From a virus, in IMG/VR virus record IMGVR_UViG_3300018050_000401, positions 1,721 to 65,720 of that record: DNA of 64,000 bases; one strand, written 5' to 3'. A model generated the notes under the pieces. The model ran no database searches, was not told the origin of the DNA, and saw nothing but the letters and a program-made list of their open reading frames with translations. Below are positions 16,011 to 64,000 of this stretch, piece by piece. Each line of letters begins with the position of its first letter. The first letter of the stretch is position 1. Both the position numbers and the translations under genes were made by a program.

Positions 16011-28543
<12,533 letters not shown>

Positions 28544-35900: not shown

Positions 35901-37264
35901 TCGATGTTTTTACACTGATTATACAATTTGGTTAGCTCTGGAAAGGTTTCCAAAAAATTGGTGCCGCGTCTACGATCATGCTCATCAAAAAATAAACCAA
36001 AATCTTTTAAATGGACAACTTCTTTATTCTCTTTGATCAGGTATTGTATGCGTTCGAGCTTGTTTATTTCCCAATTTTGAAATCCTTTTCCATCGCAATG
36101 GTTCATTTTCATAAATTGAACTTGCTCTAACAGCATATCAATATACTCAACAGGAAGAATTCTAACACTCATCCATTTTGGATTATCCAGGTAAGGGATA
36201 TCTAAACCAATGGTCCTAGTTTCTTTATAAAATTTAAGTTTCATTATCAACACGTCTTTCAAAAATTCCATATAGGAAGTTATTGAAAGTGCATTATATG
36301 TTGACATGATACTGAAATTACCATCCGGCACTTCGTTCAAGTATCTGTGACAATTTTCTAGCCAAGTACTGTACACCATTCCGTTGCGTATGTATTCTGC
36401 TTTCTTACCATATGCCTCGGCACTGGTAAACAGAGTAAACTTTTTGACCATTTTGTTTTCTTGAATGATTTTAATCTTTTCAAGGAACTTATCAAACAGT
36501 TTATCGGGCAATACACAGTTACTATTAATAGCCAACTCAAGATTTGGATTTGGATTTTCAATAATATAATCGAGTACTTTGAATGTGTCTTTACTCATTA
36601 AAGGCTCGCCGCCTGTAATTCGGAAAGTATGTAGGGTAGCATAAACTTCAGGCCACCATTTCCAAAATGCTTCTACATAAGGGTTGTGTTCCTTTAATGG
36701 GATAGGCATTTTGTTTTGATACTTGGTATGTTCAAGATTGTTATACCCTAAACCAGTTGGGTATCCGCCAAACTTTTCAATTTCTTCCATCCACTTAGAG
36801 CTAATGTGCGGGCTGCAATAAGCACATTTAAAATTACAAGCATGGCTAAAACTGACTTCTAAGTAGGTAGGCTTGATATTTCTTTCCCATCCAGCATACA
36901 TTACATTAAAGTATTGGTCTTTCCCCGACCAGTCGTCTGTACTTTTGTAGACTCTGTCGCTGAAAATATCACTGTCTGGCGGGGCACTATCTTCAACTTG
37001 CCAGCAAAAATGACATTCTTCTGGCCGAGATCCTGTCATCATAAGTTTACGTTGTTCTTTTTTGAACTTGGTATTGTGTAATGCGCTAGGATCTTCCTGT
37101 ATTTCTTCTATAGGAATTTTATGTGTATTAGGGTGGTGACAACTATGGGTGTGGCCGTTTTGTAAATGTAGAGTGACCTGTAGCCATTTAGCAAGGCACA
37201 TGCCTGGGCCGGTTCTATCTAAGATTTGTTTTGCTTGTCTAAGCCAAATAACTTTATCGTTCAT
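35897..37264 (-). CDS. Radical SAM enzyme with N-terminal Cys-rich auxiliary domain (455 aa)
   Basis: SFSHACNFKCAYCSPHISSKW (CxxxCxxC) core and ITGGEPL glycine-rich SAM motif. N-terminal C..C....CxxC extension. Paralogous to the ORFs at 56613 and 58797, sharing the C-terminal F.ETFPEL motif. Confidence 0.75.
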   Translation of the reverse strand: MNDKVIWLRQAKQILDRTGPGMCLAKWLQVTLHLQNGHTHSCHHPNTHKIPIEEIQEDPSALHNTKFKKEQRKLMMTGSRPEECHFCWQVEDSAPPDSDIFSDRVYKSTDDWSGKDQYFNVMYAGWERNIKPTYLEVSFSHACNFKCAYCSPHISSKWMEEIEKFGGYPTGLGYNNLEHTKYQNKMPIPLKEHNPYVEAFWKWWPEVYATLHTFRITGGEPLMSKDTFKVLDYIIENPNPNLELAINSNCVLPDKLFDKFLEKIKIIQENKMVKKFTLFTSAEAYGKKAEYIRNGMVYSTWLENCHRYLNEVPDGNFSIMSTYNALSITSYMEFLKDVLIMKLKFYKETRTIGLDIPYLDNPKWMSVRILPVEYIDMLLEQVQFMKMNHCDGKGFQNWEINKLERIQYLIKENKEVVHLKDFGLFFDEHDRRRGTNFLETFPELTKLYNQCKNID

Positions 37265-51746: not shown

Positions 51747-51859
51747 TGGTGTAGACGGTAGGATTCGAACCTACAAAGCCGCCATATTGACTAGGCCCGT
51801 TCCCCCTGTGGCCGTTCGTTACACCACAGGGGAGGTCTACCAATTCCACTCACGTCTAC
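51747..51859 (-). tRNA. Atypically long (113 nt) tRNA-like gene with CCA end, Leu/Ser/Tyr-type D-loop and an extra 9-bp hairpin
   Basis: Minus strand: GTAGACG acceptor 5' arm pairs with CGTCTAC-A-CCA. D-loop GGAATTGGTAGAC. T-arm GTAGG-TTCGAAT-CCTAC. Central region contains the CCCCTGTGG/CCACAGGGG helix. Too long for a standard type-II tRNA. Confidence 0.5.
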
Positions 51860-51935: not shown

Positions 51936-52910
51936 ATGAGCTTTAACCAAATACCATTCGAACACATAGTCCGTTTTGGACAGCAGACTATGCTGGACAG
52001 ACCCTTGTTTTCAGTTAGTTGGATACTAGGTCGGTTTTGCAATTATAAATGTTCCTACTGCTGGCCCTATGCTAGAAGTGATCAATTAGATTATCAATCT
52101 CTAGATGTTTACAAGTATACAGTCGATGAGATAAAACGTCAAGCCCAAAATAACGGGTTTACAGAGTTCCATTGGAGCTTTAGCGGTGGCGAACCTACAG
52201 CATATAAAGAACTATTAGATTTGGTTAGATACCTTGAAACAGACAAACGAAGTACATACCAAAGTATCCACATGACTACAAATTTAAGTCCAGGATCTAA
52301 ATGGTGGAAAACTTGGTGCGATATCACATCAACTCTACAGCGCCGAAGCATTACTGCCAGCTATCACGCAGAGTTTGCTAAAGAACAAGAGTTTGGAGAT
52401 AAGTGCTTACAGTTAATGTATGAAAATGTTTTTGTTACTGTTAATCAAGTAATGGTTCCGGAAAAGTTTTATGAGCTATATGATCGTATGTCTAGGTTAC
52501 ATCAACGAGGCATTAATGTTACCTTGAAGCCGCAAAGCAACGAAACCGCTAGTGCTATTGTAGACGGTTATACAGAAGACATGATACACAAAATGCAAAC
52601 TGGTTTTCCGCAAACAGCACATAATGAAGAAGTGTACCAAATAAGACTTAACGACGGATTTAAAGATTATTATTTTGACCAAGCCGAAAGATTCAATGCT
52701 TTTGGATTTAATAAGTTTAAAGGTTGGACTTGCAATAGCGGCTATCAAAGTGTTATAATTAGAGGTAATGAAGTTAAACGTAGTTACAGTTGCCACGATG
52801 TACCGTTAGGAACTCTAAAAGACTTTACCTTGTTTAAGGAACCAGTTAAATGTATTACACCCAGTTGTGTCAGCTCGGCAGATAGTAAGATACCAAAATG
52901 TCGAGATTAA
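51936..52910 (+). CDS. Radical SAM enzyme with C-terminal SPASM-like domain (324 aa)
   Basis: ILGRFCNYKCSYCWPY CxxxCxxC. FSGGEPT. C-terminal KGWTCNSG...C...C..C...C SPASM/twitch-like cysteines. First gene of a plus-strand operon. Confidence 0.75.
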   Translation: MSFNQIPFEHIVRFGQQTMLDRPLFSVSWILGRFCNYKCSYCWPYARSDQLDYQSLDVYKYTVDEIKRQAQNNGFTEFHWSFSGGEPTAYKELLDLVRYLETDKRSTYQSIHMTTNLSPGSKWWKTWCDITSTLQRRSITASYHAEFAKEQEFGDKCLQLMYENVFVTVNQVMVPEKFYELYDRMSRLHQRGINVTLKPQSNETASAIVDGYTEDMIHKMQTGFPQTAHNEEVYQIRLNDGFKDYYFDQAERFNAFGFNKFKGWTCNSGYQSVIIRGNEVKRSYSCHDVPLGTLKDFTLFKEPVKCITPSCVSSADSKIPKCRD

Positions 52911-53563
52911 TTGTATTTGGATGCTCTATGTGTTACGGAGTTGGGTTACCTGATTGCTGGCCACCAACGTCTACACCTAGTAAGTTATGTTGGCCAGAAA
53001 TAGTTGCCAAAGCATTGGGATATCAGTGTGTAAACATGTCAGCATCTGGATCTGGTAACAAAGCAATTTGGTATAAGATTAAGAATTTTAAATTTGAGGA
53101 AGACGACCTTGTTTTGATTTTGTGGTCTTTTCCTAACAGGTATACACTAATAGAAGGACCTAACAACATAAAACATTTGCATCATAATAATTACGATGAG
53201 TTATCAGTTGCATATTATAATAACTTATACGACGAGTATGATTCCCAAGTGATGTCAGAGTTATTTGTTGACCATGCAAATTATATTTTGAATTCGAAGA
53301 AAGTAAATTTTTATCAAATGGCAGTTAAAAAGCGATATTGGAAAATGTTTAAAGATCACCGCTATCTAAAAATAACAATGGATGCGTATGAAACATTATA
53401 CCCAAGAGCACTAGACAACAGTCATGCAGGAATAGAAGGGCACAAAGCATTTTCTAAAGATTTGTTAGATATGCTTGGTTATAAAAATACTTTACCTAAA
53501 GTATCCCCTCCTAGATTTATAAACAAAATAAAACTTCCGTTATGGAAGTTATTCATTTGGTGA
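52898..53563 (+). CDS. SGNH/GDSL-like hydrolase-fold protein (221 aa)
   Basis: Block I-like IVFGCSMCYG, GSGN (block III-like), DNSHAGIEGH (DxxH-like). Divergent from canonical GDSL. Confidence 0.4.
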   Translation: MSRLIVFGCSMCYGVGLPDCWPPTSTPSKLCWPEIVAKALGYQCVNMSASGSGNKAIWYKIKNFKFEEDDLVLILWSFPNRYTLIEGPNNIKHLHHNNYDELSVAYYNNLYDEYDSQVMSELFVDHANYILNSKKVNFYQMAVKKRYWKMFKDHRYLKITMDAYETLYPRALDNSHAGIEGHKAFSKDLLDMLGYKNTLPKVSPPRFINKIKLPLWKLFIW

Positions 53564-53566
53564 CGT

Positions 53567-54169
53567 ATGAACATTGACCTAGATCATTTACATCATTGGA
53601 TGTGTGCTATTAGAGAAAGCAAAGATCCTATGAGAACATTAGATGCGTTCTGGAGCGGCCAGATACGCAGTAAAGAATGGCTGATTTCGGAACTACAACG
53701 GCTTAGATGCCACGTTGACGACTGGCCTTCTGTAGATATTCATGGAGGATGGGTTGGTGTACTTGCCAGTATGTTATTTCAAAGCAACCTTTACATTAAA
53801 AATATAAGAAGCATTGATATTGATCCTACGTGCGAACCTGTCGCTAACCGTATGAATCAACTTGAACTAGAAACAGGTAAGTTCAGAGCAGTGACAGCTG
53901 ACATGTGTTCTATCCGAAGCGATGCAGATATTGTAATTAATACTAGTTGCGAACATATTACACAAGATGAGTTTGACCTATGGAAGAGCGGTTTGCCACA
54001 AAACAGTCTTTTAATTTTACAGGGTAACAATTATAGTATACCAGAACATAAAAGAATTTCCAGTTCATTAGATGATTTTAAAACTCAGTGCAATTTAGAT
54101 AATGTTTGGTATGCAGGCAAATTAGAATTGCCTTCTTATACACGCTTTATGGTAATTGGTAAAAAATAA
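53567..54169 (+). CDS. Class I SAM-dependent methyltransferase-like protein (200 aa)
   Basis: Motif I-like VDIHGGWVGVLASML, motif II/III-like IDIDP...ADIVINTSCEH. Confidence 0.5.
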   Translation: MNIDLDHLHHWMCAIRESKDPMRTLDAFWSGQIRSKEWLISELQRLRCHVDDWPSVDIHGGWVGVLASMLFQSNLYIKNIRSIDIDPTCEPVANRMNQLELETGKFRAVTADMCSIRSDADIVINTSCEHITQDEFDLWKSGLPQNSLLILQGNNYSIPEHKRISSSLDDFKTQCNLDNVWYAGKLELPSYTRFMVIGKK

Positions 54170-55218
54170 TGTATCAAGTAACTGCCGTACATATTGAATT
54201 AACTGACAAGTGCCAGGCCGCATGTCCAATGTGTGCTAGGAATCACAACGGCGGCAGTGAACGACCTTTTATTAAGAATACAGAAATTACATTTGATAAT
54301 TTTAAACAATGGTTCCCAACTTCGTTCCTTTCTAAATTAAACAATTTTTATAGTTGCGGAAACTACGGTGATCCTGCATTTGCTACAGACTGTTTTGAAA
54401 TATATGACTATGTTAGAAATGCAAGTCCTACTGCTAGGTTAGCCATGCATACTAACGGTAGTTTAAGAAAGTCACAGTGGTGGGCAGACTTGGCAAAAGT
54501 AATGGGACAAAATGGAGAAGTTATCTTTGCTGTTGACGGATTTAAAGGAAAGCACGAATTATACAGGCGCCACACGGACTTTGACAAAATAATTGAAAAT
54601 ATAAAAGCGTATGTCGGTGCTGGCGGAATTGCTAGAGTTGATAGTTTAATTTTTAAACACAATGAATCAGATGTTGAACAGTTAGAAAATTTTTTATTAG
54701 AACTGGGTGTAAAGTCTGTTAACTTTAAAAGCACAAAAAGATTCTACAACATGGATTCTTTTCCTGTGTACAATCGAGACAATACGTTTGCATATAATAT
54801 CTATCCTGCAGAAACACCTAATTTTAAACAAGAAGTAAAGATTCCTTTAGAAAACTTTTTAGACAAATCTTTTACAAAAAAAGTTATGGAGGAATCGTTA
54901 ATTAATCCACAATGTGTTAATAAACAAGAAATTTATGTTGACCCGCATGGTAACATATTACCGTGTTGTTATATTGGAAGTGATTATCTAGAACAGCCGT
55001 TAGAAGAAAAAATGGTTATACAGACACTTAGAAATATAACAGTTAACAATTCTAAACAAATGATGAACGCCATCGGTGTCCCTAATCTACATAATGCAAA
55101 TATAGAAGAACTACTAAGTCAACCAGGACTATGGGAAGATTTAGAAAATTATTGGACTGGAAAAGACAAATGTATGACCTGTGTTAAAACTTGTTCTAGT
55201 CAGCTTTACGATCTATAA
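54169..55218 (+). CDS. Radical SAM enzyme with SPASM domain (349 aa)
   Basis: LTDKCQAACPMCAR CxxxCxxC. C-terminal PCCYIGSD...CMTCVKTC SPASM-type cysteines. Confidence 0.75.
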   Translation: MYQVTAVHIELTDKCQAACPMCARNHNGGSERPFIKNTEITFDNFKQWFPTSFLSKLNNFYSCGNYGDPAFATDCFEIYDYVRNASPTARLAMHTNGSLRKSQWWADLAKVMGQNGEVIFAVDGFKGKHELYRRHTDFDKIIENIKAYVGAGGIARVDSLIFKHNESDVEQLENFLLELGVKSVNFKSTKRFYNMDSFPVYNRDNTFAYNIYPAETPNFKQEVKIPLENFLDKSFTKKVMEESLINPQCVNKQEIYVDPHGNILPCCYIGSDYLEQPLEEKMVIQTLRNITVNNSKQMMNAIGVPNLHNANIEELLSQPGLWEDLENYWTGKDKCMTCVKTCSSQLYDL

Positions 55219-55942
55219 ATTTCAGCCATCCAAATTTTTCAAACAGTCTTGCATACCAATAAAACAAATCAAACTCAAACCATTTAATTCCAACATTTGC
55301 TCTATTAGGATATACATGGTGGTTGCTGTGCAGTTCAGCCATACCTCCAAAATAAATTCCTAACGGAAACATATTAAATGATCTATCAGGATATTTGTTT
55401 CCTTCGTGTCGATACAGGCCAACTTTATGTGGTAGCCATGCACTTAGTAATACAAGGCCTACTTTGTCGGAAAACCACATAAGCATTGGCGCAACTACTA
55501 AGCCTATCCACCCAAACAACATGCCATATATTAACGAAATCAAAACTATTCCGCCATACGGATATTTTGAATAGACATTGCGTTGCATCCAGTCATCGTA
55601 TATAGGAACATCTGGTGCATGGTCTAGATGTGTATTTGGATCAACCCTTTTAAAATACGGATTGTGATTAGCGTTGAATAGGCCCTTTAATGAAATATGA
55701 TAAGGAGAATGACTATCATTTTCCGAATCGCTGTTTTTATGATGTAGTCTGTGTGTACCAGCAGACATCCTTAACCATTGCGGCCAAGTACCCCACCGGA
55801 TAGTCCAAAGTATAAATCTACAAACATGTTCAAAGCCAGGTGACACTTTAAGATATCCGTGAGAATAGCCTCTATGTACTAACATATCCATAGTGAGAAC
55901 TATGATGTGAAAATTTAACAAATAAAAAAAGAATAATTCCAT
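55196..55942 (-). CDS. Membrane di-iron fatty-acid desaturase/hydroxylase-family protein (248 aa)
   Basis: Three His boxes: HRGYSHGY, HRLHHKNSD, HSNHHVYPNRAN. Several TM helices. Confidence 0.6.
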   Translation of the reverse strand: MELFFFYLLNFHIIVLTMDMLVHRGYSHGYLKVSPGFEHVCRFILWTIRWGTWPQWLRMSAGTHRLHHKNSDSENDSHSPYHISLKGLFNANHNPYFKRVDPNTHLDHAPDVPIYDDWMQRNVYSKYPYGGIVLISLIYGMLFGWIGLVVAPMLMWFSDKVGLVLLSAWLPHKVGLYRHEGNKYPDRSFNMFPLGIYFGGMAELHSNHHVYPNRANVGIKWFEFDLFYWYARLFEKFGWLKFIDRKAD

Positions 55943-56619
55943 TATAGTTTTTCAACTTCTAAATTAATGCCGCATTGCTTTATAGACTCAACTGCTTCAT
56001 CAAAGATACTAAAAATGTTTGTGTTCACTAATATTTCCTTTTCGCTTAGTCCTTTAAAACCTGTAATTTCTTTATTTTTTACAGCAGGATTAATAATACG
56101 CATTATTGGTGTATAAGCTAATTGTTTCCAGTTGTAATCTCCGTCAAGCACTTTGATCCTTAGTCCAGCGTTTAATGGATTGTACTTAGGAAGCAACACT
56201 CTAATATTTAAGTGTACTCGTGTGCTTGCACCCCAATTTGCCGCCACATGAATTTTGCCAGTGTCCATGTGCCATATTTCTCCTGTTGCTGGTATATGAT
56301 GAAGATGATTATCTGTGATACTGACTAGGTATGCATATGGATTAGTGATAATAGGCAAGTGTATTCTGTCATCGGGGTCGCAATGTGCTGTATAACTTTC
56401 CCCAGAGTCTAATGATAGCAATCGTGCTTGTCCAATATTTTCTAAAGAATCCAGTACATCGCCCAAAGGAGTATTTTTAAATTCAGCTTTAGTTAACCAT
56501 GGGTCGTTAAAGAATTGCCCAGTGCAAGTATTAAGTTCAAGTCTCTTAAATACGCCAAGAGATTTAACTTGTTCAACAATAGGATCGATATTAAATTTTT
56601 TATCTAATAGTGTTAGCAT
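55942..56619 (-). CDS. Aspartyl/asparaginyl beta-hydroxylase-like cupin (2OG/Fe(II) oxygenase family), 225 aa
   Basis: SYTAHCDPDDRIHLPI (HxD) ...GEIWHMDTGKIHVAANWGASTRVHL matches the AspH-domain facial triad and W.G..fD...H.a.N.s...R pattern. Confidence 0.6.
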   Translation of the reverse strand: MLTLLDKKFNIDPIVEQVKSLGVFKRLELNTCTGQFFNDPWLTKAEFKNTPLGDVLDSLENIGQARLLSLDSGESYTAHCDPDDRIHLPIITNPYAYLVSITDNHLHHIPATGEIWHMDTGKIHVAANWGASTRVHLNIRVLLPKYNPLNAGLRIKVLDGDYNWKQLAYTPIMRIINPAVKNKEITGFKGLSEKEILVNTNIFSIFDEAVESIKQCGINLEVEKL

Positions 56620-58040
56620 AATAAATGCGCCAGTTCAGGAAACACTTTTTTAAAATCTGTATTACGTTGCTGGTCTAAAGCTGTAATGTACTCTTGGAAA
56701 TCGGGAAGCAAGTTTGTGTGATCCTCTGAGTCCATCCAATCTAAAATCCCTTCCCATCGTTTCCATCCGTAAGGGTCAGTATTCCAAAAATGTTCATCAG
56801 TTCTATAGTTTTCTTTTAGCCAAGATTTAAGTTCGACAAATAACCGGCGAACTTCTTCTTTATCTTTTTTAGGTAGTACTCTTAAACTTAACCAAGTAGG
56901 TATCCATACTAAGTGAGCACTAAAGATTCCTCCGCTATGTGTTTCGCCTAGAATGTTATCGTCTAAATTAATTCTTTTAAACCCACTAGTAACTTTCCAC
57001 TTTATAAATTCTGGAATATGTTTAATATTTAATATTTGCACAGCGCAGGCAATGGTAGTTTCTATATTTGATGGTGCGTTGTCAAGTATTGTTAGATTTT
57101 TTACAATAGTATCCCAGTCTGCTGGATATCGGATATAGTGTAATCGTTCACCTATACCATCAATGCTAAACCCATACTTAACTTTTCTAAAGTGTTTCCA
57201 TGTCTCAATGATAGAAGGATCAATTAATATTCCGTTGCTATTATATCGTAGTTCTATTTTAGCGGCATACCCTTGTTTTATAATTTCTTGTAGGAATGTT
57301 TTGTGTTCCTTAATCATTAAAGGTTCGCCACCGGCAAAGTATATTTGTTTAATGTTAGGAATCTGTTCGTATATCTCTTCCCAGAATGCCGGGTTCTCGT
57401 GCCAGCGATTATCAAATCCTGTACGTTGCCAACTAAGTTGCTTTTTAATCAACGGGCTTTGAAAAAGCGGATAAATCTTTTTGTGGTCTTCAACCCACTT
57501 ACTACTATCGTGTGGGCTACACATTACACACTTTAAATTGCAGGTATTGCCTAGTCGTAAATCAATATACTGTAACTTATAAGGAACATAGCCATCTTCT
57601 TGTGTTTGTGATATTAACGCAGGAATGTCTATTCCATGCTTGTGCCATGTGCCAGTTTCCCATATTCTTTTACTGACAACACCGTTGCTTTCTTCTTCAA
57701 AACACTTTTTACAACTTGCGGGAACATTCCCATCGAGCATGGTAGTTCGAACACTACGCATATACTCGTTGTTGAAAGCTTCGCTAGGTAAATCTTTTCC
57801 AAAGTTAGCCGGATCACCGTTTTCTTTTTTAACGAGTCCTACAGTATAGTTTCCGTCTTCTGCACCACTAGCATTGGCTACACAACAGATACGCATATCA
57901 CCGTTTGGGCGTGTTGCTAAATGTATCCACGGTAATACACAAAAACTGGCACTACCAGACACATCTTTGATTTGTTTCTGCCAAGTTCCTATCTGTGTGG
58001 ATTCAGGTTGCATCCAAAATACTGTTTGAGTATTGTCCAT
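56613..58040 (-). CDS. Radical SAM enzyme with N-terminal Cys-rich auxiliary domain (475 aa)
   Basis: RLGNTCNLKCVMCSPHDSSKW, FAGGEPL. N-terminal C...CC...CxxC. Paralog of 35897..37264 and 58797..60032. Confidence 0.75.
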   Translation of the reverse strand: MDNTQTVFWMQPESTQIGTWQKQIKDVSGSASFCVLPWIHLATRPNGDMRICCVANASGAEDGNYTVGLVKKENGDPANFGKDLPSEAFNNEYMRSVRTTMLDGNVPASCKKCFEEESNGVVSKRIWETGTWHKHGIDIPALISQTQEDGYVPYKLQYIDLRLGNTCNLKCVMCSPHDSSKWVEDHKKIYPLFQSPLIKKQLSWQRTGFDNRWHENPAFWEEIYEQIPNIKQIYFAGGEPLMIKEHKTFLQEIIKQGYAAKIELRYNSNGILIDPSIIETWKHFRKVKYGFSIDGIGERLHYIRYPADWDTIVKNLTILDNAPSNIETTIACAVQILNIKHIPEFIKWKVTSGFKRINLDDNILGETHSGGIFSAHLVWIPTWLSLRVLPKKDKEEVRRLFVELKSWLKENYRTDEHFWNTDPYGWKRWEGILDWMDSEDHTNLLPDFQEYITALDQQRNTDFKKVFPELAHLLC

Positions 58041-58078
58041 GAAATATTTATATGCTACTATTATGTAGTAAATATATC

Positions 58079-58786
58079 ATGATTATCCCATTCGAGTCTA
58101 ATTGGAAAAATGTAGCTATCAGTGTAAGTGGCGGTGCGGACTCCGCATTATTGGCATATCTAGTTTGCGAACAAGCCTACGAGCATGACACTACAATTCA
58201 TATTATTAACCATGTGCGTATGTGGAAGACACGCCCGTGGCAACAATATGATGCCGACCGTGTATATAAATGGTTGTTCCAAAGATTCTATCATACAAAT
58301 TTTAAACGCCATACTAACTTTATTGCACCGGATATCGAGTACGGTAATATTGGCCCTAATTTAACCGACGAGTACGGTAAGAAGGTCAGTGGTGATAATA
58401 TACAACAACGAGCATATGGAGAGTTTATTTGTAACAAGTATAATATAGATGCTTACTACAATGCTGTTACTCGAAATCCAAGACTGGCATCTTTCAATGG
58501 TATGCGCGAGCGCGATATTGATCCGAATGAAGATAACAAACACTTAGAAAGAATGACACACATGGGTGTAGAAGTTTTACATCCTTTTAGATTTATTGAC
58601 AAATCTGAAATTGTTAAAAAATATAAAGAATTAAACTTAATGGATTTATTTGAAATAACTCGCAGTTGTGAGGGCGAGTTCGATGGTATTGATTATACAA
58701 CGTATAAGCCAGGACAGGTTGTTCCCATATGCGGTGAATGCTTCTGGTGCAAGGAACGAGAGTGGGCAATTGAACAATCAAAGTAA
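58079..58786 (+). CDS. PP-loop ATP pyrophosphatase, QueC-like (N-type ATP-PPase with C-terminal Cys cluster)
   Basis: PP-loop SGGADS (VAISVSGGADSALLAYL). C-terminal SCEG...PICGECFWCKER (Cx2Cx2C), similar to QueC zinc-site spacing. Start at the internal Met preferred over 58052. Confidence 0.6.
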   Translation: MIIPFESNWKNVAISVSGGADSALLAYLVCEQAYEHDTTIHIINHVRMWKTRPWQQYDADRVYKWLFQRFYHTNFKRHTNFIAPDIEYGNIGPNLTDEYGKKVSGDNIQQRAYGEFICNKYNIDAYYNAVTRNPRLASFNGMRERDIDPNEDNKHLERMTHMGVEVLHPFRFIDKSEIVKKYKELNLMDLFEITRSCEGEFDGIDYTTYKPGQVVPICGECFWCKEREWAIEQSK

Positions 58787-58796
58787 AACATTTTGT

Positions 58797-60032
58797 ATGC
58801 ATCCTTTTACAGGACTAGCAACTAGAGAAGATGGGGCTATCAAAGCCTGCTGTCGTAGCCATCCTGTTGGGTTTATTGATAAAGAAAGTTTGGAAGAAAT
58901 TTGGAACAACGACACTATGAAGCGTATTCGTCAACAAGTGTTGAACAATGAAAGACCTCCGGAGTGTGAACCTTGTTTTAATTTAGAAGATCAAGGAGTA
59001 GTGAGTTTACGACAACGTCACGTAGAGGCACGTATACCAGAGGCACGTATTAATCTATACCCAACTGCGTTGAACAACCTTAACAGTGATTATTCAATGC
59101 CTTTTGAAATTCCAACAATGGAGTTAAAGTTAAACAACTTGTGTAATTTGAAATGTCGTATGTGCCACCCCGGAGACAGCACTAGCTGGAATGATTGGGA
59201 TCAAGTAGAAGATTTCTATAAAAAAGATAACAACATTATATTTCATTTAGTTGAAGATAATAATTTAAAAAACAAACCGTTCCTTGATAAGTTTCAAGAT
59301 AACCCAGCATGGTGGACAAGTTTAGAAAAACTGTTACCATATTTTCGTCGTGTAGAATTTGCCGGAGGAGAACCTCTGATGGATCCCCAACACTATCGTA
59401 TTTTAGATATGCTAAGTCCTTACGGCAATCAGATTGAAATCAAGTATGCTACTAACCTAAGTATGTTAGGAAAGAGCAATAGAACAATTTGGGAGTACTG
59501 GCCTAAATTTAAATCTGTTGCAGTTAACATAAGTATTGATGGAATTGATGAAAGCTACGAATATATTCGAGGCAACGCCAGTTGGACAGAGTTGATTGAT
59601 AATATTAAAAAGATACAAACTATTCCTAACATAAGCAGAATTGTTGGTGCGGTTACTGTACAAGTTAGTAATGTTCTTGTGCTAGATAAAATTATCAAAT
59701 ATTTCTTAGATGATATTGGCATTGTTTTTCATTCGCATAGGGTAGAGTTTCCAAGAGAATTATCTGCTCAAGTGTTGCCACCAAAATTAACAGCGTTGGC
59801 CATACAGCGATTGCAGGAAGTCAGTTACCATGTTAAAGATTTTAAAATGGTCAAACAACATCCTCAACTTTTAAAATACACCTTGGATCAGATACAAGAC
59901 AACATTAACTATCTACAAGCAAGGGATCAAAGTCATAGATGGAGCGATTGTGTAGAATTTAATCGTAGGCTAGATCAAACTCGAAATCAAAGTTTTACCA
60001 ATGTAACTCCGGAGTTTAAATCGTATGTTTAA
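58797..60032 (+). CDS. Radical SAM enzyme with N-terminal Cys-rich domain (third paralog), about 411-420 aa
   Basis: KLNNLCNLKCRMCHPGDSTSW, FAGGEPLM. N-terminal CC...CxxC. The ORF is open from 58668 and overlaps the upstream gene. ATG 58797 or an upstream TTG 58770, which retains the first Cys, are possible starts. Confidence 0.7.
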   Translation: MHPFTGLATREDGAIKACCRSHPVGFIDKESLEEIWNNDTMKRIRQQVLNNERPPECEPCFNLEDQGVVSLRQRHVEARIPEARINLYPTALNNLNSDYSMPFEIPTMELKLNNLCNLKCRMCHPGDSTSWNDWDQVEDFYKKDNNIIFHLVEDNNLKNKPFLDKFQDNPAWWTSLEKLLPYFRRVEFAGGEPLMDPQHYRILDMLSPYGNQIEIKYATNLSMLGKSNRTIWEYWPKFKSVAVNISIDGIDESYEYIRGNASWTELIDNIKKIQTIPNISRIVGAVTVQVSNVLVLDKIIKYFLDDIGIVFHSHRVEFPRELSAQVLPPKLTALAIQRLQEVSYHVKDFKMVKQHPQLLKYTLDQIQDNINYLQARDQSHRWSDCVEFNRRLDQTRNQSFTNVTPEFKSYV

Positions 60033-60912
60033 AGTAACAAGTCGTTGGCCTCACCAAGATAGTATCAAGGTTGAATGGAATCTTGGCAAGAGATGTAATT
60101 ACGATTGTAGCTATTGCCCTTCAGTTATACATGACAATTCTAGCCCTCACACAGATATTGAAGTCTTAAAAAAGACCATAGACAAATTACAAACTTTAGG
60201 CAAGCCAATACGTTTAAGTTTTACAGGTGGGGAACCTTGTGTGCATCCTAAGTTCGACGAGCTTATAAAATACGCAAAGTACAAAGGAGTTGCATGGATT
60301 AGTGTAACAACTAACGGAACTAGACCTTATGAGTTTTATGCCAGTTTACCAATTGACCAATGTGTTGTTAGTATACATTTAGAATACGACTGGCGCCGTG
60401 TGTTCAATACTATAGAAAGTCTTGTTGATTTGACAAAAATAAAAGTATTAGCACAAATAATGGCCCATCATGATTATATGGATGCTGTGATGCAGTTACG
60501 TGCTCGATGCCTTCAAGCACAAATTCCAAACACTGTTAGGCGCATACGATGGACTGAAGGTGATCACGATTTATTTGATGATATGCGTTATCATCCAGAC
60601 GACCTTGCATGGATAAAAGAACAAGATGCTACTATTTCAGGAAACTGCGTAATTGACGATAAGGAAATTATTCATGCCAACGATGTTATTAAACTTCATT
60701 TGAATAAATTTAAAGATTGGAGTTGTAATGCTGGCATTGAAAGTTTAATGATTAACTGGGATGGTGAGGTACATCGTGCAACTTGTAGAGTTGGTGGTAG
60801 TCTAGGAAATATATACCAAGGAACTTTTACACCAACAGAAGATCCTATTATATGCACAAGAAACTTCTGTACATGTTCTTCGGATATTCCTATTACTAAA
60901 CTTTCTCCTTAG
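60025..60912 (+). CDS. Radical SAM enzyme with C-terminal SPASM-like domain (295 aa)
   Basis: LGKRCNYDCSYCPS, FTGGEPC, TTNGT. C-terminal KDWSCNAG...C...C..C.C cysteines. Paralog of 51936 and 60896. Confidence 0.75.
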   Translation: MFKVTSRWPHQDSIKVEWNLGKRCNYDCSYCPSVIHDNSSPHTDIEVLKKTIDKLQTLGKPIRLSFTGGEPCVHPKFDELIKYAKYKGVAWISVTTNGTRPYEFYASLPIDQCVVSIHLEYDWRRVFNTIESLVDLTKIKVLAQIMAHHDYMDAVMQLRARCLQAQIPNTVRRIRWTEGDHDLFDDMRYHPDDLAWIKEQDATISGNCVIDDKEIIHANDVIKLHLNKFKDWSCNAGIESLMINWDGEVHRATCRVGGSLGNIYQGTFTPTEDPIICTRNFCTCSSDIPITKLSP

Positions 60913-61906
60913 TTAAATTTACTTCGGTAACGCAGAGGCAATTAGCTTGATTACAGATTACCGACTTAATCTCTGGACAAAAGTTTTCTTTAAAATTAAT
61001 ATCGTATAAATTGTAGTGGTACTTTTCGCCATACAGCAGTTGTCCGCAAGTACCAGATACTGTTCCGTCAACATTAATAAACAACCTATCCACTCCAATG
61101 TTGCATGACCAACCTTTAAAATGATTCCAGTCATTTAGCATTGCTTCGTTGGACTGAAGTTTTCGTTTATTTCCGTCAACGAATGTTGCAGTTGGTTCTT
61201 TTTGATAGTAGTATGATTTAAATATATTTTTTAACAAATACAACCAGTTTCCTTTTCTAACTAGAGAATTTGTTTTGATAAATTCTGCTTGTTCGTCTGT
61301 ATAAGTAATTTTTCTTTTACTGTTATCTTCTAAACTTTGTAAATTGATTGCCCACGTATGTTTGCTAGTTTTTAATTGTTCGATGGCCTCGGTGCACTGA
61401 ATCCAGTAATCAGGATCCATCATAACTAGTCCTGTAACTACTATGTTGTTTTCATACAGCGCATCCGCAACAGATATGAAGTGATCTATGTTTGTTTCTT
61501 GTATGTGAAAACTCAGAACAACTTGATCAAAGTATTTTGAATTTTCCTTCCACCAATCTAATGTTCTTGATCCGTTGGATACAATCATTATTGAAACATT
61601 GTGATGTAATTTTAGTTTTGAACAAAACTCTGGAAGGTGCTTCCACAGCGTAGGTTCTCCGCCTAATAAGCTAATTTCAAACTTCTTCTTTCTTGAATGT
61701 TCTTTATAATAATCTAACAAGTGTATAAGATTATCGGATACTTTGATCCAATCTTCTTTGAATCGTTTTGTGCCGTCATTGCAACCATCAAAACAATAGT
61801 TACATTTATAATTGCATACATTTGAAACCATGTATGCAATATTAAGTATATCTCTATAATTGCTTACTAGTTTTATCGGTTCTGATAACATCAATGATTC
61901 GTCCAA
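60896..61906 (-). CDS. Radical SAM enzyme with C-terminal SPASM-like domain (336 aa)
   Basis: VSNVCNYKCNYCFDGC, LLGGEPT. C-terminal KGWSCNIG...C...C..C..C.C cysteines. Confidence 0.75.
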   Translation of the reverse strand: MDESLMLSEPIKLVSNYRDILNIAYMVSNVCNYKCNYCFDGCNDGTKRFKEDWIKVSDNLIHLLDYYKEHSRKKKFEISLLGGEPTLWKHLPEFCSKLKLHHNVSIMIVSNGSRTLDWWKENSKYFDQVVLSFHIQETNIDHFISVADALYENNIVVTGLVMMDPDYWIQCTEAIEQLKTSKHTWAINLQSLEDNSKRKITYTDEQAEFIKTNSLVRKGNWLYLLKNIFKSYYYQKEPTATFVDGNKRKLQSNEAMLNDWNHFKGWSCNIGVDRLFINVDGTVSGTCGQLLYGEKYHYNLYDINFKENFCPEIKSVICNQANCLCVTEVNLTKEKV

Positions 61907-62645
61907 TTAAATCCCATTCCCACCATTGCTCTCCAGCTCTATAGTTCTGTGGGTTAGCATGGTGATTGTTATGCCAACCGTCGCCCATACTAAAAATATT
62001 TGCTATCCAACTGTTAGTACTCAGGTCTCTAGTTTCGTAACTTCTATAACCGTGTACATGCCCAAGAACGTTAACAATGCCCACAAGTAAGATAGTTGCA
62101 CTCATAGGTATAGCATAGGCAAATAACACTAATATAGGGTTGATTAGAAATAACAAGAATATGTAAGCTATTAAAAGTTTAAAGTAATTGTCAAAGATAA
62201 ATTTATGTACAGGGTTTCGTAATAAATCTTTTACAAGAAATGGTGTTAGTTTATGCATCTTCCAACCGTAGCCTATCCAAACTTGTAGTCCTCGTAAGAT
62301 AGAAAACTTTCTGTTAATGTTTGGACTATGTGGATCATCATCTGTATCTGTCTTGGCATGATGTATTCTGTGTGTACTTACCCAGGACATAGTAGGCCCA
62401 ACTGTTGATATAACACTTATTAACGATAGTAGTGTTTCTGTTGTTTTGTTAACTTTAAAACTTCTATGTGTTAGCAGTCTATGTAGGGTGAGTACTTGAC
62501 TAATTGGTCCAACAAAAAACCACACTACTGACGAAATTAATAGTAGATAGTATTGGCCAGTTTGCATAATGTATGCAACTCCACATAAACTTAACAAATG
62601 ACCTATAGTCTGAAACACTCTAATTTTTAAATTTAGATTCATAGT
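61854..62645 (-). CDS. Membrane fatty-acid desaturase-family protein (about 263 aa)
   Basis: His boxes HRLLTHRSF, HRIHHAKTDTDDDPHSP, HNNHHANPQNYR. Multiple TM helices. Start chosen at the internal Met MNLNLK to limit overlap. Confidence 0.6.
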   Translation of the reverse strand, partial: TMNLNLKIRVFQTIGHLLSLCGVAYIMQTGQYYLLLISSVVWFFVGPISQVLTLHRLLTHRSFKVNKTTETLLSLISVISTVGPTMSWVSTHRIHHAKTDTDDDPHSPNINRKFSILRGLQVWIGYGWKMHKLTPFLVKDLLRNPVHKFIFDNYFKLLIAYIFLLFLINPILVLFAYAIPMSATILLVGIVNVLGHVHGYRSYETRDLSTNSWIANIFSMGDGWHNNHHANPQNYRAGEQWWEWDLIGRIIDVIRTDKTSKQL

Positions 62646-63259
62646 CCGGGCTCCAACTGCAACCACTCCTTGTGTGTAATTAATTTAGGTTTCCATTGTT
62701 CAGTAATAACACCTGAAACTTTTTCATGATAAACAAAATTTTGCCAGCACTTTTGTACATTCCAAGGAGCAGTTTGTATATAGCCACCTCCGTTAGTATA
62801 CGTTCCTTCGCTAGCAATCAACATGTGCTTAACAAATACTCTATCCCACCATCCTTTACTTTCTTTTTTATCTCTGTTTTGCATTGTAAGAATATAACCG
62901 TCAAAGTTATTTACTGCTTCTAATGCTTTCATTAAACTGTAAGTGACTCTAAACCCGTCAGTCATGTCTCTCGGCGTCATTCTAAATTCTGGAAATGTAA
63001 ACCCCCTGTGAACGATGTTTGCAACATTATGTGGATATCGTTCGTCGTGATATACACCCCCCATTACCATAGGTTTACCTGTACTTGTTTGGTATACAAC
63101 ACCAAAGCCTTTGTGCTTTTCAACAACAAGTTTGTCTTTAGTATAGTTTGCACCTAACCAATTTCCTTCAGCAAGTACAATGTCACGCACATCTTCAAAC
63201 TCTGAACAAGACTCATAGTAAATTTTAATGTGTGTGTTTGATAAATCGTACCTATCCAT
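62639..63259 (-). CDS. Hypothetical protein (206 aa)
   Basis: Long ORF within the accessory operon. No motif recognised. Confidence 0.45.
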   Translation of the reverse strand: MDRYDLSNTHIKIYYESCSEFEDVRDIVLAEGNWLGANYTKDKLVVEKHKGFGVVYQTSTGKPMVMGGVYHDERYPHNVANIVHRGFTFPEFRMTPRDMTDGFRVTYSLMKALEAVNNFDGYILTMQNRDKKESKGWWDRVFVKHMLIASEGTYTNGGGYIQTAPWNVQKCWQNFVYHEKVSGVITEQWKPKLITHKEWLQLEPGL

Positions 63260-63831
63260 TACTTGATTTTTCCTGTAATTATATCCAAATTTTCTTTTGA
63301 TATGTTAAATGCTGTTTTTGCTCTTTCAAGTGTAAAATCTGTTAGTTTAAACTCAAAAGAAATATTTGTAAATCTTGGGTTTCTTAACCAAAACTCTATA
63401 ACATCGATTACTTCATTGTAAGAAATTAAAACATCGCTGTTCACAGCATCTTCTAGCATCGAAACTTGTATGTGTAAAATTTTTGTACTTGGCAATAAGC
63501 TAAGTTCTTTACAACGATTAGCAAGATCAAACTTGTGTTTACTATAGTCCGATAATAGTTGATTATGGAACTCTCCTGCCACACTGCCAAGTACAATTTG
63601 TTTAATATTATGATTTACTGAATTCAAGAGTTCTAGCTGTGCTCTATCAACATTTGCGTTGTTAATAAATAAATCTGCATTGTTGATAATATCTACAATT
63701 GGTGTTAAATCGGCACGTAAGTCGTAACCAGTTTGTCGGCTTATTCCAACAACTTCCCAACCTGATGTTTGGAAATAATTGTATAGGGCTTTACCTAATC
63801 CTGTTGTATGACCAGTTATTACGCATTTCAT
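63259..63831 (-). CDS. NAD(P)-binding short-chain dehydrogenase/reductase-like protein
   Basis: N-terminal Rossmann motif VITGHTTGLGKAL (TGxxxGxG). Canonical YxxxK not evident, so classification is tentative. Confidence 0.45.
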   Translation of the reverse strand: MKCVITGHTTGLGKALYNYFQTSGWEVVGISRQTGYDLRADLTPIVDIINNADLFINNANVDRAQLELLNSVNHNIKQIVLGSVAGEFHNQLLSDYSKHKFDLANRCKELSLLPSTKILHIQVSMLEDAVNSDVLISYNEVIDVIEFWLRNPRFTNISFEFKLTDFTLERAKTAFNISKENLDIITGKIK

Positions 63832-64000
63832 AAAGTGTCTCAGCAATAGGATATTTACATAATTACTGTATGTCCAAAAAATTTCATAGCTTACTGTTCT
63901 CTATAAACGACTCTAATAACTTTAGGGGAACGGGCGCACATCGTATAGCTCACGTGCTACGCCAAGAAGGTTGGGATTGTGAAGTTGTGGACTTTGTTTT

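What the first reader, a model, noticed from the sequence alone, without database searches (positions are those of the whole stretch)
51936..63846. Phage-borne 12-kb island dense in radical-SAM/SPASM enzymes, desaturases, an AspH-like hydroxylase, methyltransferase, PP-loop ATPase and SDR
The island encodes six radical-SAM proteins; a seventh paralog sits about 15 kb away at 35897..37264.
- SPASM-type rSAMs: three paralogs at 51936, 60025 and 60896, each with a C-terminal GW(S/T)CN.G...C SPASM/twitch motif. A fourth SPASM-bearing rSAM is at 54169.
- N-terminal-Cys rSAMs: 56613 and 58797.
- Two membrane di-iron His-box desaturase/hydroxylase-family proteins at 55196 and 61854.
- An Asp/Asn beta-hydroxylase-like cupin at 55942, a SAM-MTase-like protein, an SGNH-like protein, a PP-loop ATPase and an SDR-like protein.

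The island has an operon-like divergent/convergent layout and begins right after a tRNA-like gene. SPASM-type rSAM enzymes typically install post-translational modifications on peptides or proteins (sactionine/ether crosslinks, formylglycine, PQQ-type chemistry), and AspH-type enzymes hydroxylate Asp/Asn in peptides. A comparable concentration of such enzymes has not been described in a virus, as far as I know. It could be a peptide/RiPP-like modification system, a modification system for phage structural proteins, or a hypermodification pathway for lipids or nucleosides.
Basis: partly seen in the sequence, partly recalled or inferred. Interest (0 to 1): 0.9.

Follow-up and report, generated by a model that had tools for sequence, protein, structure and literature searches.

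The report
Radical-SAM enzyme island in a jumbo phage
A large uncultured phage carries a tightly packed, widely conserved but constantly reshuffled block of at least eight radical-SAM enzymes plus oxygenases, whose closest cellular counterparts sit in sugar-chain gene clusters of predatory Bdellovibrio-like bacteria; its product is unknown, and it looks more like sugar or nucleoside tailoring than peptide modification.

Summary
Seven ORFs pass the Pfam radical-SAM threshold: six in 51936-61906 and one at 35897-37264. An eighth, B12-type, starts at 63870 and is cut by the window end. Three are N-terminal-twitch rSAMs (NCBIfam NF033640, 337-410 bits). The other four keep only 4-5 C-terminal Cys, so they are twitch-like, not full SPASM. 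The window is a jumbo phage with T4-like replication and baseplate genes.

The island is not a one-off. More than 587 IMG/VR contigs and about 4,900 protein clusters carry orthologues. The core gene set is conserved, while order and accessory genes are shuffled.

The closest cellular homologues (43-50% identity) are almost all in Bdellovibrionota chromosomes. There the same core genes lie among GT2 glycosyltransferases, PMT_2, GNAT and a sugar nucleotidyltransferase.

The phage island has no precursor-peptide space, no RRE and no glycosyltransferase. The cupin's nearest solved relative is Cpz10, a small-molecule hydroxylase. A1's best fold match is BlsE.

My best reading is a tailoring cassette for a sugar- or nucleoside-type small molecule (confidence about 0.35). 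RiPP, DNA hypermodification and lipid readings remain possible. rSAM-rich phage modules were already reported (CP220/CPt10 in 2010; a marine genome in 2017), so the novelty claim is overstated.

The parts
51750..51859 (-). Conserved tRNA-like RNA at the island boundary. Acceptor stem, D-arm, T-arm and encoded CCA are present, with a long variable arm. The anticodon arm is replaced by a capped hairpin of variable length.
   Evidence: Rfam RF00005 27.5 bits, E 9e-4, just under GA 29. ARAGORN negative. The 3' half is identical in 16 related loci. 9 of 29 pairs covary.
51936..52910 (+). rSAM 'A1' (324 aa), with a twitch-like C-terminal Cys4.
52898..53563 (+). SGNH-hydrolase-like protein (221 aa). 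The label is tentative.
   Evidence: No HMM hit. GCS / GSGN / DxxH motifs read by eye. Present in 21 of 85 related loci.
53567..54169 (+). Class-I SAM-methyltransferase-like core gene (200 aa).
   Evidence: No HMM or PDB hit. Invariant GGxxG and D84/D86. Present in 72 of 85 loci. 32-40% identical neighbour in the Bdellovibrionota clusters.
54169..55218 (+). rSAM 'B' (349 aa), with a C-terminal Cys4.
   Evidence: PF04055 30.3 bits. C266/267/338/342 conserved. Weak hits to W-cofactor maturase and BlsE models. Weak tblastn hit to a CP220 rSAM.
55196..55942 (-). Membrane di-iron desaturase/hydroxylase-like protein (248 aa). Accessory gene.
   Evidence: NF049918 125 bits, below the 400 cutoff. Three His boxes in the sequence. 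Not found in related phage loci at the thresholds used.
55942..56619 (-). 2OG/Fe(II) cupin of the Asp/Arg-hydroxylase family (225 aa).
   Evidence: PF05118 26.1 bits. H79-x-D81...H124 invariant. Best PDB match Cpz10 (7V4F), E 1e-12.
56613..58040 (-). N-terminal-twitch rSAM 'NTwi1' (475 aa).
58052..58786 (+). PP-loop ATPase with a QueC-like C-terminal Zn-Cys4 (244 aa).
   Evidence: PF06508 28 bits, C-terminal part only. TIGR00364 20 bits against cutoff 150. Invariant SGGxDS and C206/227/230/233.
58770..60032 (+). N-terminal-twitch rSAM 'NTwi2'. The ORF opens at 58668 and the probable start is TTG 58770.
   Evidence: NF033640 337 bits; PF13186 35.8 bits at the N-terminus. Start-codon scan.
60025..60912 (+). 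rSAM 'A2' (295 aa).
   Evidence: PF04055 50.4 bits. STM4011-family 54.5 bits, sub-threshold. Five invariant C-terminal Cys. Orthologues on more than 587 viral contigs.
60896..61906 (-). rSAM 'A3' (336 aa).
   Evidence: PF04055 50.4 bits. Conserved C-terminal Cys.
61854..62666 (-). Fatty-acid-desaturase-family membrane protein (270 aa). Accessory gene.
   Evidence: PF00487 71.1 bits. Found in 9 of 85 related phage loci. Homologues lie next to NTwi1 orthologues in L138 and L131.
62639..63259 (-). Unknown 206-aa protein. Accessory gene.
   Evidence: No hit in Pfam, NCBIfam or PHROGs.
63259..63846 (-). Short SDR-like protein (195 aa).
   Evidence: Sub-threshold SDR/epimerase hits. TGxxxGxG and YxxxK motifs read in the sequence.
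63870..64000 (+). N-terminus of a 497-aa B12-binding-type rSAM, cut by the window end.
   Evidence: 43 of 43 residues identical to L001:6981-8474, which weakly hits B12-rSAM models.
35897..37264 (-). Third N-terminal-twitch rSAM 'NTwi3' (455 aa), located among tail-fibre genes.
   Evidence: NF033640 336.8 bits. 47% identical orthologue inside the Bdellovibrio sp. HCB2-146 cluster.
28544..28882 (-). A-type Fe-S carrier (IscA/ErpA-like). Likely support for the Fe-S enzymes.
   Evidence: PF01521 is present in the window inventory. I assigned it to this ORF from its GGGCSG...CGCG motifs.

Best explanation
The island is a hypervariable tailoring-enzyme cassette of a widespread uncultured jumbo-phage lineage. 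I infer that it remodels a sugar- or nucleoside-type small molecule, most likely a glycan precursor, and not a ribosomal peptide.

Shown:
- There are seven intact rSAM enzymes plus one truncated by the window end. Each has at most one auxiliary Fe-S cluster.
- They sit with an active-looking 2OG oxygenase, a PP-loop ATPase, an MTase-like protein, an SDR-like protein and desaturase-like proteins.
- The core gene set is conserved across hundreds of phage contigs.
- Orthologues of six of the genes lie together in Bdellovibrionota chromosomal clusters rich in GT2 glycosyltransferases.

Inferred mechanism:
- The twitch-type rSAMs abstract H atoms from unactivated C-H bonds of a sugar or nucleoside scaffold, giving oxidation, epimerisation, decarboxylation or deoxygenation, as BlsE and BtrN do.
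- The B12-type rSAM C-methylates the scaffold.
- The cupin hydroxylates it and the MTase methylates it.
- The PP-loop enzyme adenylates a carboxylate to form an amide or nitrile.
- The SDR reduces a keto intermediate.
- A phage A-type Fe-S carrier helps load the clusters.

The phage supplies only tailoring steps. It has no glycosyltransferase, so it would act on host-made precursors. Candidate purposes are changing a host surface glycan (for example a receptor) or producing a phage-specific modified sugar or nucleotide. Reshuffling of the island among relatives suggests diversifying selection on the end product.
For: rSAM cores and Cys counts.

Conservation and shuffling:
- More than 587 IMG/VR contigs carry the island.
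- Core versus accessory content and gene order were compared.
- Related loci hold a median of 8 and a maximum of 11 rSAM-motif ORFs per ~20 kb.

Bdellovibrionota orthology:
- NTwi1 is 43-50% identical, A1 about 50%, MT about 35%, rSAM_B about 30%, NTwi3 47%, plus the AspH-like gene and the PP-loop gene.

Glycan-type context in the bacteria:
- GT2 in 5 of 8 annotated contexts, PMT_2 in 2, GNAT in 2, and NTP_transferase plus an APH-type kinase in 1.
- GT2 homologues in 22 of 52 long loci.

Small-molecule leaning:
- The cupin's best PDB hit is Cpz10 (PMC9814697).
- There is no RRE and no precursor space.
- An FkbM-methyltransferase fusion occurs in the N_Twi family.

Distant analogue: the CP220 rSAM module sits next to two GT-A-like proteins and a PAP2 phosphatase.

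Support gene: an Fe-S A-type carrier is in the window.
Against: - No substrate, product or activity is known for any of these families. N_Twi has no characterised member in the literature I could search.
- No glycosyltransferase, nucleotidyltransferase or transporter homologous to the bacterial ones occurs in the window or in 80 related phage loci.
- GT2 association is absent in about half of the bacterial loci, and no genomic background rate was computed.
- The A1 model is of low confidence in the C-terminal Cys region.
- TPR fusions in the N_Twi family hint at protein substrates.
- The host is unknown.
Confidence: 0.35

Rival explanations
1. Nucleoside or DNA-base hypermodification pathway. 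The island builds a modified purine or pyrimidine nucleotide that ends up in phage DNA, or in the neighbouring tRNA-like RNA, as protection against host nucleases. This would be analogous to 7-deazaguanine or hypermodified-thymidine systems.
For: - The PP-loop ATPase has a QueC-like Zn-Cys4 and hits PHROG 1550, 'QueC-like'.
- A PTPS/QueD-family gene is in the window, and a QueD-like gene lies 6 kb from the CP220 rSAM module.
- There are weak QueE-model hits for A2 and A3, and for A1 at lower score.
- Cpz10 acts on a uridine derivative (PMC9814697) and BlsE on a cytosine nucleoside.
- Hypervariability fits an arms race.
- A dCMP deaminase and a MazG-like gene are nearby.
Against: - QueC and QueE equivalog cutoffs are missed by a wide margin: 20 against 150 bits and 37 against 206 bits.
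- No FolE, DpdA/TGT or hydroxymethylase was seen in the window inventory.
- The PTPS gene lies 19 kb from the island.
- Orthologous clusters in Bdellovibrionota are embedded in GT2-rich loci, which is not expected for DNA modification.
Confidence: 0.2
2. Post-translational modification of peptides or proteins. This covers a RiPP-like product or modification of phage or host fibre and structural proteins by rSAM crosslinking, epimerisation or methylation plus beta-hydroxylation.
For: - Fold neighbours include anSME, SkfB, CteB, ChlB and EpeE.
- PF05118 is named after protein Asp/Asn hydroxylases.
- TPR fusions occur in N_Twi proteins.
- NTwi3 lies among tail-fibre genes.
- The Bdellovibrio cluster abuts a 1959-aa Peptidase_S74 fibre-like protein.
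- The B12-type rSAM has weak hits to RiPP and MCR methylases.
Against: - No intergenic gap longer than about 15 bp exists in the island, so there is no precursor ORF.
- No PqqD/RRE, leader peptidase or exporter was found.
- No full 7-Cys SPASM is present.
- The rSAM cores start within 10-30 residues of the N-terminus in the A and B families.
- The accessory genes are further cupins, not RiPP-type enzymes.
Confidence: 0.15
3. Host membrane-lipid or lipid A remodelling. Desaturases, an LpxO/OlsC-type hydroxylase, an SGNH acyl-hydrolase, an SDR and lipid-type rSAM enzymes would alter envelope lipids during infection.
For: - There are two His-box desaturase-family proteins.
- To my knowledge, PF05118 also contains the lipid hydroxylases LpxO and OlsC.
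- The B12-type rSAM's best hits are the lipid-biosynthesis B12/rSAM model TIGR04072 (46.5 bits) and HpnR/HpnJ.
- The tetraether lipid synthase Tes model and the GDGT-MAS structure appear among the hits.
- Desaturase homologues lie next to NTwi1 orthologues in L138 and L131.
- PMT_2/ArnT-like genes occur in the bacterial clusters.
Against: - The desaturases are accessory: Des2 is in 9 of 85 loci and Des1 in none.
- All the lipid-model hits are far below their cutoffs.
- No acyltransferase or ACP-related genes were found.
- The core rSAM, MT, cupin and PP-loop set has no known lipid counterpart.
Confidence: 0.1

Closest known systems
rSAM-rich interchangeable module of Campylobacter T4-like phages CP220/CPt10 (Timms et al. 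2010, PMC2853527)
   Same: - It is a T4-like myovirus with 11-12 rSAM genes, five of them in one swappable block of unknown function.
- rSAM_B and A3 have weak tblastn matches there at 25-27% identity.
- The module is adjacent to sugar-transferase-like genes, and a QueD-like gene is nearby.
   Different: - No N_Twi-family matches to CP220 were found.
- CP220 has an amidinotransferase and GT-A-like genes that are absent here.
- Here there are cupins, a PP-loop ATPase and desaturases.
- The host and environment differ, and the homology is only remote.
Uncharacterised N_Twi-rSAM / GT2 clusters in Bdellovibrionota chromosomes (e.g. Bdellovibrio sp. HCB2-146, locus L167)
   Same: - Orthologues of NTwi1, NTwi3, A1, rSAM_B, MT and the cupin, and in other loci the PP-loop gene and a desaturase, are clustered at 30-50% identity.
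- They contain tandem rSAM arrays.
   Different: - The bacterial clusters carry several GT2 genes plus PMT_2, GNAT, an amine oxidase and a sugar nucleotidyltransferase. None of these is found in the phage.
- Their function is also unknown.
Marine T4-like environmental viral genome with 12 rSAM genes plus an A-type Fe-S carrier (Nishimura et al. 2017, PMC5332604)
   Same: It combines many rSAM genes with an A-type carrier gene in a T4-like phage. This window also has a PF01521 carrier.
   Different: That genome was not compared at sequence level here. The paper only counts the genes.
Twitch-domain rSAM enzymes acting on sugars or nucleosides (BlsE, BtrN, SpeY)
   Same: - They are small (about 300 aa), with an rSAM core plus one C-terminal auxiliary cluster.
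   Different: - Sequence identity is only 15-20%.
- The BlsE model TIGR04466 scores 31.6 bits against a cutoff of 400.
- In the N_Twi proteins the twitch domain is N-terminal, an arrangement with no solved example.
SPASM rSAM peptide/protein maturases (anSME, CteB, SkfB, PqqE)
   Different: There is no 7-Cys SPASM, no RRE, no precursor, and all equivalog cutoffs are missed.
Phage 7-deazaguanine (QueC/QueD/QueE/DpdA) DNA-modification clusters (from my own knowledge: Hutinet et al. 2019)
   Same: A PP-loop enzyme with a QueC-like Zn site, rSAM enzymes and a PTPS-family gene occur in one phage genome.
   Different: QueC and QueE thresholds are not met, the genes are not clustered together, and no FolE or DpdA was seen in the window.

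Membership tests
Radical SAM superfamily (PF04055) | HMM score at or above the gathering score (29.5), plus a CxxxCxxC motif that binds the SAM cluster | tested here: met
   All seven ORFs score 30.3-50.9 bits. The motif is invariant in orthologues of the six island rSAMs.
N_Twi_rSAM (NCBIfam NF033640) | Full-length match at or above 170 bits, with the Cys-rich twitch domain N-terminal to the rSAM core | tested here: met
   56613: 409.5 bits. 58668: 337.1 bits. 35897: 336.8 bits. Five conserved N-terminal Cys.
SPASM domain (PF13186 / 7-Cys, two auxiliary clusters) | C-terminal CX9-15GX4C...CX2CX5CX3C...C motif with seven Cys; PF13186 at or above 21.5 bits | tested here: not met
   No PF13186 hit in 51936, 54169, 60025 or 60896. 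Only 4-5 invariant C-terminal Cys. PF13186 is found only N-terminally in 58668 (35.8 bits) and, sub-threshold, in 56613 (17.3 bits).
RiPP biosynthetic cluster | A precursor peptide gene next to the maturases | tested here: not met
   ORFs abut or overlap from 51936 to 63846, with no gap longer than about 15 bp. No recurrent small ORF was found in 80 related loci at 80 aa or longer. ORFs under 80 aa in other loci were not searched.
RiPP biosynthetic cluster | An RRE (PqqD-like) domain in, or next to, the rSAM maturase | tested here: not met
   No PqqD/RRE family was reported by the Pfam or NCBIfam scans. The rSAM cores start at residues 9-35 in the A and B families.
QueC (TIGR00364 / PF06508) | Equivalog score at or above 150.3 bits across the whole length | tested here: not met
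   20.3 bits over the C-terminal 75 residues only. The PP-loop SGGxDS and Cys4 motifs are present.
QueE (TIGR03365 / TIGR03963) | Equivalog score at or above 206 / 260 bits | tested here: not met
   The best score is 37.3 bits, for A2.
Asp/Arg beta-hydroxylase family (PF05118) | HMM at or above 22.6 bits, plus an HxD...H iron triad | tested here: met
   26.1 bits. H79/D81/H124 are invariant.
AspH sensu stricto (protein EGF-domain Asp/Asn hydroxylase) | Acts on protein Asp/Asn; close similarity to AspH | tested here: inconclusive
   The best PDB relative is Cpz10 (small molecule), E 1e-12. No AspH chain was hit at E<=1. The substrate cannot be tested with these tools.
Fatty acid desaturase (PF00487) | HMM at or above 29.7 bits, plus three His boxes | tested here: met
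   61854 scores 71.1 bits. 55196 has no PF00487 hit but shows three His boxes and an NF049918 score of 125 bits, below the 400 cutoff.
Viperin (NF038283) | Equivalog score at or above 180 bits | tested here: not met
   The best score is 63.3 bits, over the N-terminal core only.
tRNA (RF00005) | Score at or above 29 bits; a cloverleaf with a 7-nt anticodon loop | tested here: not met
   27.5 bits. ARAGORN is negative. The anticodon arm is replaced by a capped hairpin of variable length, in some relatives with a UUCG-type tetraloop.
Class I SAM methyltransferase / SGNH hydrolase / SDR | An HMM match above threshold | tested here: inconclusive
   No Pfam, NCBIfam or PHROG hit for 53567 and 52898. 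Only sub-threshold SDR hits for 63259. Motifs are conserved.
Surface-glycan biosynthesis cluster | Glycosyltransferases, nucleotide-sugar synthesis genes and an export or ligase step | tested here: not met
   These occur in the Bdellovibrionota homologous clusters. They are absent from the window and from 80 phage loci. One cytidylyltransferase-like gene lies 45 kb away.

The most novel reading that the evidence does not exclude
The island, possibly together with its conserved anticodon-less tRNA-like RNA, encodes a multi-step radical pathway. It uses at least eight rSAM enzymes, including the uncharacterised N-terminal-twitch family. The product would be a previously unknown hypermodified sugar or nucleoside, used by an abundant jumbo-phage lineage on its DNA, its virion or the host surface. 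Among cells, this chemistry would be shared mainly with predatory Bdellovibrionota.
Probability: 0.25. Interest if true: 0.85.

Novelty: new variant of a known kind. Interest (0 to 1): 0.6.

Why it matters
rSAM-dense modules have been noticed in T4-like phages since 2010, but none has a known product.

- This lineage is very common in metagenomes: about 4,900 clusters of A1 homologues at 90% identity.
- The N-terminal-twitch family behind it has more than 5,000 clusters at 50% identity and no characterised member.
- Orthologous clusters in a cultured Bdellovibrio isolate provide, for the first time that I know of, a genetically tractable cellular counterpart in which to find the product.

If the product is a new sugar, nucleoside or DNA modification, it would define new radical chemistry and a new phage-host interaction strategy.

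Tried and rejected
- Megablast of the island and of the 30-50 kb region against 50,697 phage records gave no match.
- tblastn of A1 against the phage records gave none. tblastn of NTwi1 against plasmids gave none.
- Literature searches for N-terminal twitch/SPASM, NF033640 and DUF6492 found nothing. The search for Bdellovibrio with rSAM and glycosyltransferase returned one unrelated paper. Papers on 'moraphages' and amoC-phages turned out to be irrelevant.
- PDB sequence searches for NTwi1, the MT-like protein, the PP-loop protein and the DUF6492 protein were uninformative.
- Pfam scans of ten accessory-gene families from related islands mostly gave no hit. Two were further oxygenases: PF05118 and 2OG-FeII_Oxy_3.
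- Cluster look-up of ten N_Twi representatives gave no organism names.
- The DUF6492 protein shows no similarity to the CP220 GT-A-like proteins. My recollection that DUF6492 is GT-like is untested.
- The promoter and terminator scan was at chance level.
- I considered inferring a Bdellovibrionota host from the orthology. I rejected this because the phage and bacterial proteins are only 43-50% identical and no nesting was shown.

Full report
**What the window is.**
- The 64-kb window has no near-identical relative among 50,697 phage records.
- It encodes a gp44-type clamp loader, 56% identical to those of the Pseudomonas jumbo phage PA5oct group.
- It also encodes a gp9/10-like baseplate protein, tail-fibre-like proteins, a DNA ligase, UvdE and a 4,175-aa ORF.
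- Related contigs reach 331-387 kb. I conclude it is an uncultured jumbo phage with T4-like replication and baseplate modules.

**Checking the observation.**
- All ORFs are at the reported coordinates.
- PF04055 exceeds its gathering score in all seven proposed rSAM proteins.
- The ORFs at 56613, 58668 and 35897 are clear members of NCBIfam NF033640, 'twitch domain-containing radical SAM protein'. They score 337-410 bits against a cutoff of 170. Their Cys-rich auxiliary domain is N-terminal.
- The three short paralogues (A1 at 51936, A2 at 60025, A3 at 60896) are 21-28% identical to each other. They and the 54169 protein reach no specific family cutoff.
- Across up to 60 orthologues, the A family keeps CxxxCxxC plus 4-5 invariant C-terminal Cys. 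The 54169 protein keeps four, and the N_Twi proteins keep five at the N-terminus.
- That pattern fits one auxiliary cluster (twitch-like), not the seven-Cys SPASM. PF13186 is detected only at the N-termini of the N_Twi proteins.
- The cupin passes PF05118 with an invariant HxD...H triad.
- The PP-loop protein has SGGxDS and a QueC-like Cys4, but it scores only 20 bits on the QueC equivalog model (cutoff 150).
- 61854 is a bona fide PF00487 member. 55196 is a more distant His-box protein.
- The MTase, SGNH and SDR labels rest on motifs or sub-threshold hits.
TTG 58770 is a better start.
- The island does not end at 63846. A 497-aa B12-type rSAM starts at 63870. In a near-identical contig it is followed by a 256-aa ORF and another rSAM.
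- GC content falls from about 0.40 to 0.35-0.37 across the island.

**Conservation.**
- A2 alone retrieves more than 587 IMG/VR contigs at 67-82% identity.
- NTwi1 and A1 each have about 4,900 homologous 90%-identity clusters in the 5.8-billion-protein set.
- In 85 related loci the recurrent core is A1, MT, rSAM_B, cupin, PP-loop, NTwi2, A2, A3 and NTwi1.
- Des2 (9 loci), the 206-aa protein (5), SGNH (21) and SDR (23) are accessory, and Des1 was not found.
- Gene order and orientation differ between relatives, while the left flank (four small ORFs) is constant.
- Other islands carry extra cupins, a CSD-2OG oxygenase, up to three B12-type rSAMs and many families with no Pfam match.
- Loci of about 20 kb hold a median of 8 and up to 11 rSAM-motif ORFs.
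- This is therefore a conserved but hypervariable island.

**Cellular counterparts.**
- A scan of one genome per species (185,579 species) with an N_Twi alignment returned 372 relatives. Almost all of the best 80 are Bdellovibrionota. They include an isolate (Bdellovibrio sp. HCB2-146, on a 2.2-Mb contig) and several complete MAG chromosomes.
- These loci carry adjacent homologues of NTwi1 (43-50%), A1 (about 50%), rSAM_B (about 30%) and MT (about 35%). They often also carry NTwi3 (up to 47%), the cupin, PP-loop paralogues, desaturase-like genes and tandem arrays of up to seven N_Twi genes.
- Precomputed Pfam annotation of eight such contexts shows GT2 glycosyltransferases in five, PMT_2 in two, GNAT in two, FAD amine oxidases in two, and a sugar-1-phosphate nucleotidyltransferase with an APH-type kinase in one. 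One context abuts a 1,959-aa Peptidase_S74 fibre-like protein.
- By tblastn, GT2 homologues lie within 10 kb in 22 of 52 long bacterial loci. None is found in the window or in 80 phage loci.

**Substrate-class clues.**
- The island has no intergenic space for a precursor peptide and no RRE.
- The cupin's only significant PDB relatives are Cpz10 structures (E 1e-12). Cpz10 hydroxylates a glycyl-uridine intermediate of caprazamycin (PMC9814697).
- The N_Twi profile finds 5,107 clusters at 50% identity with E<=1e-30. Fusion partners are further N_Twi units, TPR repeats and an FkbM-type methyltransferase.
- Elsewhere in the window are an A-type Fe-S carrier, a PTPS/QueD-family protein and a cytidylyltransferase-like protein.

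**Interpretation.**
- I favour a cassette that tailors a sugar- or nucleoside-type small molecule, most plausibly a glycan precursor supplied by the host. The steps would be radical H-abstraction (twitch rSAMs), C-methylation (B12-type rSAM), hydroxylation (cupins), methylation, carboxylate activation (PP-loop) and reduction (SDR).
- This is inference from context and remote similarity. Nothing has been shown biochemically, and I put it at about 0.35.
- A nucleoside or DNA-modification pathway (0.2) is kept alive by the QueC-like and PTPS genes and by the nucleoside substrates of Cpz10 and BlsE.
- A peptide or protein target (0.15) is kept alive by the anSME/SkfB fold neighbours, the TPR fusions and the proximity of fibre genes.
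- Lipid remodelling (0.1) is kept alive by the desaturases and by lipid-type hits of the B12 enzyme.

**Precedents and novelty.**
- Timms et al. (2010, PMC2853527) reported 11-12 rSAM genes in Campylobacter phages CP220 and CPt10, with an interchangeable five-rSAM module.
- rSAM_B and A3 have weak matches there, and that module adjoins two GT-A-like proteins and a PAP2 phosphatase.
- Nishimura et al. (2017, PMC5332604) noted a marine T4-like genome with 12 rSAM genes and an A-type carrier.
- The phenomenon is therefore known and remains unexplained. What is new here, as far as I could find, is the composition (the N_Twi family plus cupins, PP-loop and desaturases), the scale of its distribution, and the orthology to Bdellovibrionota GT2-rich clusters.

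**Side finding.**
- The 'tRNA-like gene' is a conserved structured RNA at the island boundary. Its acceptor, D-arm and T-arm are invariant, CCA is encoded, and it has a long covarying variable arm.
- A hairpin of variable length stands where the anticodon arm should be, so it cannot decode.

Noticed in passing
window 51750-51859 (-); also L028:3567-3691 (-), L024:11377-11501 and 13 other related loci: A conserved tRNA-like RNA with no anticodon loop.
- The acceptor stem, D-arm, T-arm and ACCA end are invariant in 16 phages.
- The anticodon position holds a 6-7 bp stem capped by anything from a UUCG-type tetraloop to an extra hairpin of about 25 nt.
- It has a long variable arm, and 9 of 29 pairs covary.
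- It is always at the island boundary.
- It might be an aminoacylatable tRNA mimic recognised independently of an anticodon. Its function is unknown.
   Followed up: partly
Loci L088-L174 (genome contigs), e.g. L167 (Bdellovibrio sp. HCB2-146), L168, L153: Bdellovibrionota chromosomes carry very rSAM-dense clusters, with up to 10-13 rSAM-motif ORFs in about 21 kb and up to seven tandem N_Twi paralogues. They are often interleaved with GT2, PMT_2 and GNAT genes and appear uncharacterised. A solitary N_Twi paralogue sits at a conserved housekeeping position between an oligopeptide ABC transporter and an RseP-like protease (L169, L173).
   Followed up: partly
window 16010-28537 (-): A single 4,175-aa ORF downstream of the gp9/10-like baseplate gene. 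Its only Pfam hit is a marginal, probably spurious Phycobilisome match. It is presumably a giant fibre or structural protein.
   Followed up: no
window 28544-28882 (-), 29180-29734 (-), 32474-33007 (-), 6345-6779 (-): Auxiliary genes elsewhere in the window: an A-type Fe-S carrier (PF01521), an Fe/Mn superoxide dismutase, a PTPS/QueD-family protein and a cytidylyltransferase-like protein. The Pfam families come from a pooled scan. I assigned them to ORFs by reading the motifs.
   Followed up: partly
window 29853-30776 (-): A DUF6492 protein (PF20102, 44.8 bits) lies about 5 kb from NTwi3, separated from it by UvdE, PTPS-like and fibre-like genes. I recall this family as glycosyltransferase-like but could not verify that (no PDB or literature hit).
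   Followed up: partly
L139 (contig PBYV01000081.1, binned as Acidimicrobiaceae), L088/L140 (binned as Crocinitomicaceae): Some 'bacterial MAG' contigs with island-like content are probably mis-binned phage contigs. L139 has 13 rSAM-motif ORFs in 21 kb at GC 0.31. L088 carries a protein 72% identical to NTwi1.
   Followed up: no
L001:1289-1897 versus window 58786-58797: A near-identical contig (Logan SRR13827124) has an extra 202-aa ORF inserted between the PP-loop gene and NTwi2. This shows presence/absence variation even among very close relatives.
   Followed up: no
L087 (Vibrio phage K566, 161.5-170.3 kb): A cultured 255-kb Vibrio phage has three annotated rSAM genes in a row, plus N_Twi-like matches to unannotated neighbours. 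A PagP-like lipid A acyltransferase gene lies about 3 kb from that N_Twi-like neighbour (6 kb from the annotated rSAM genes).
   Followed up: no
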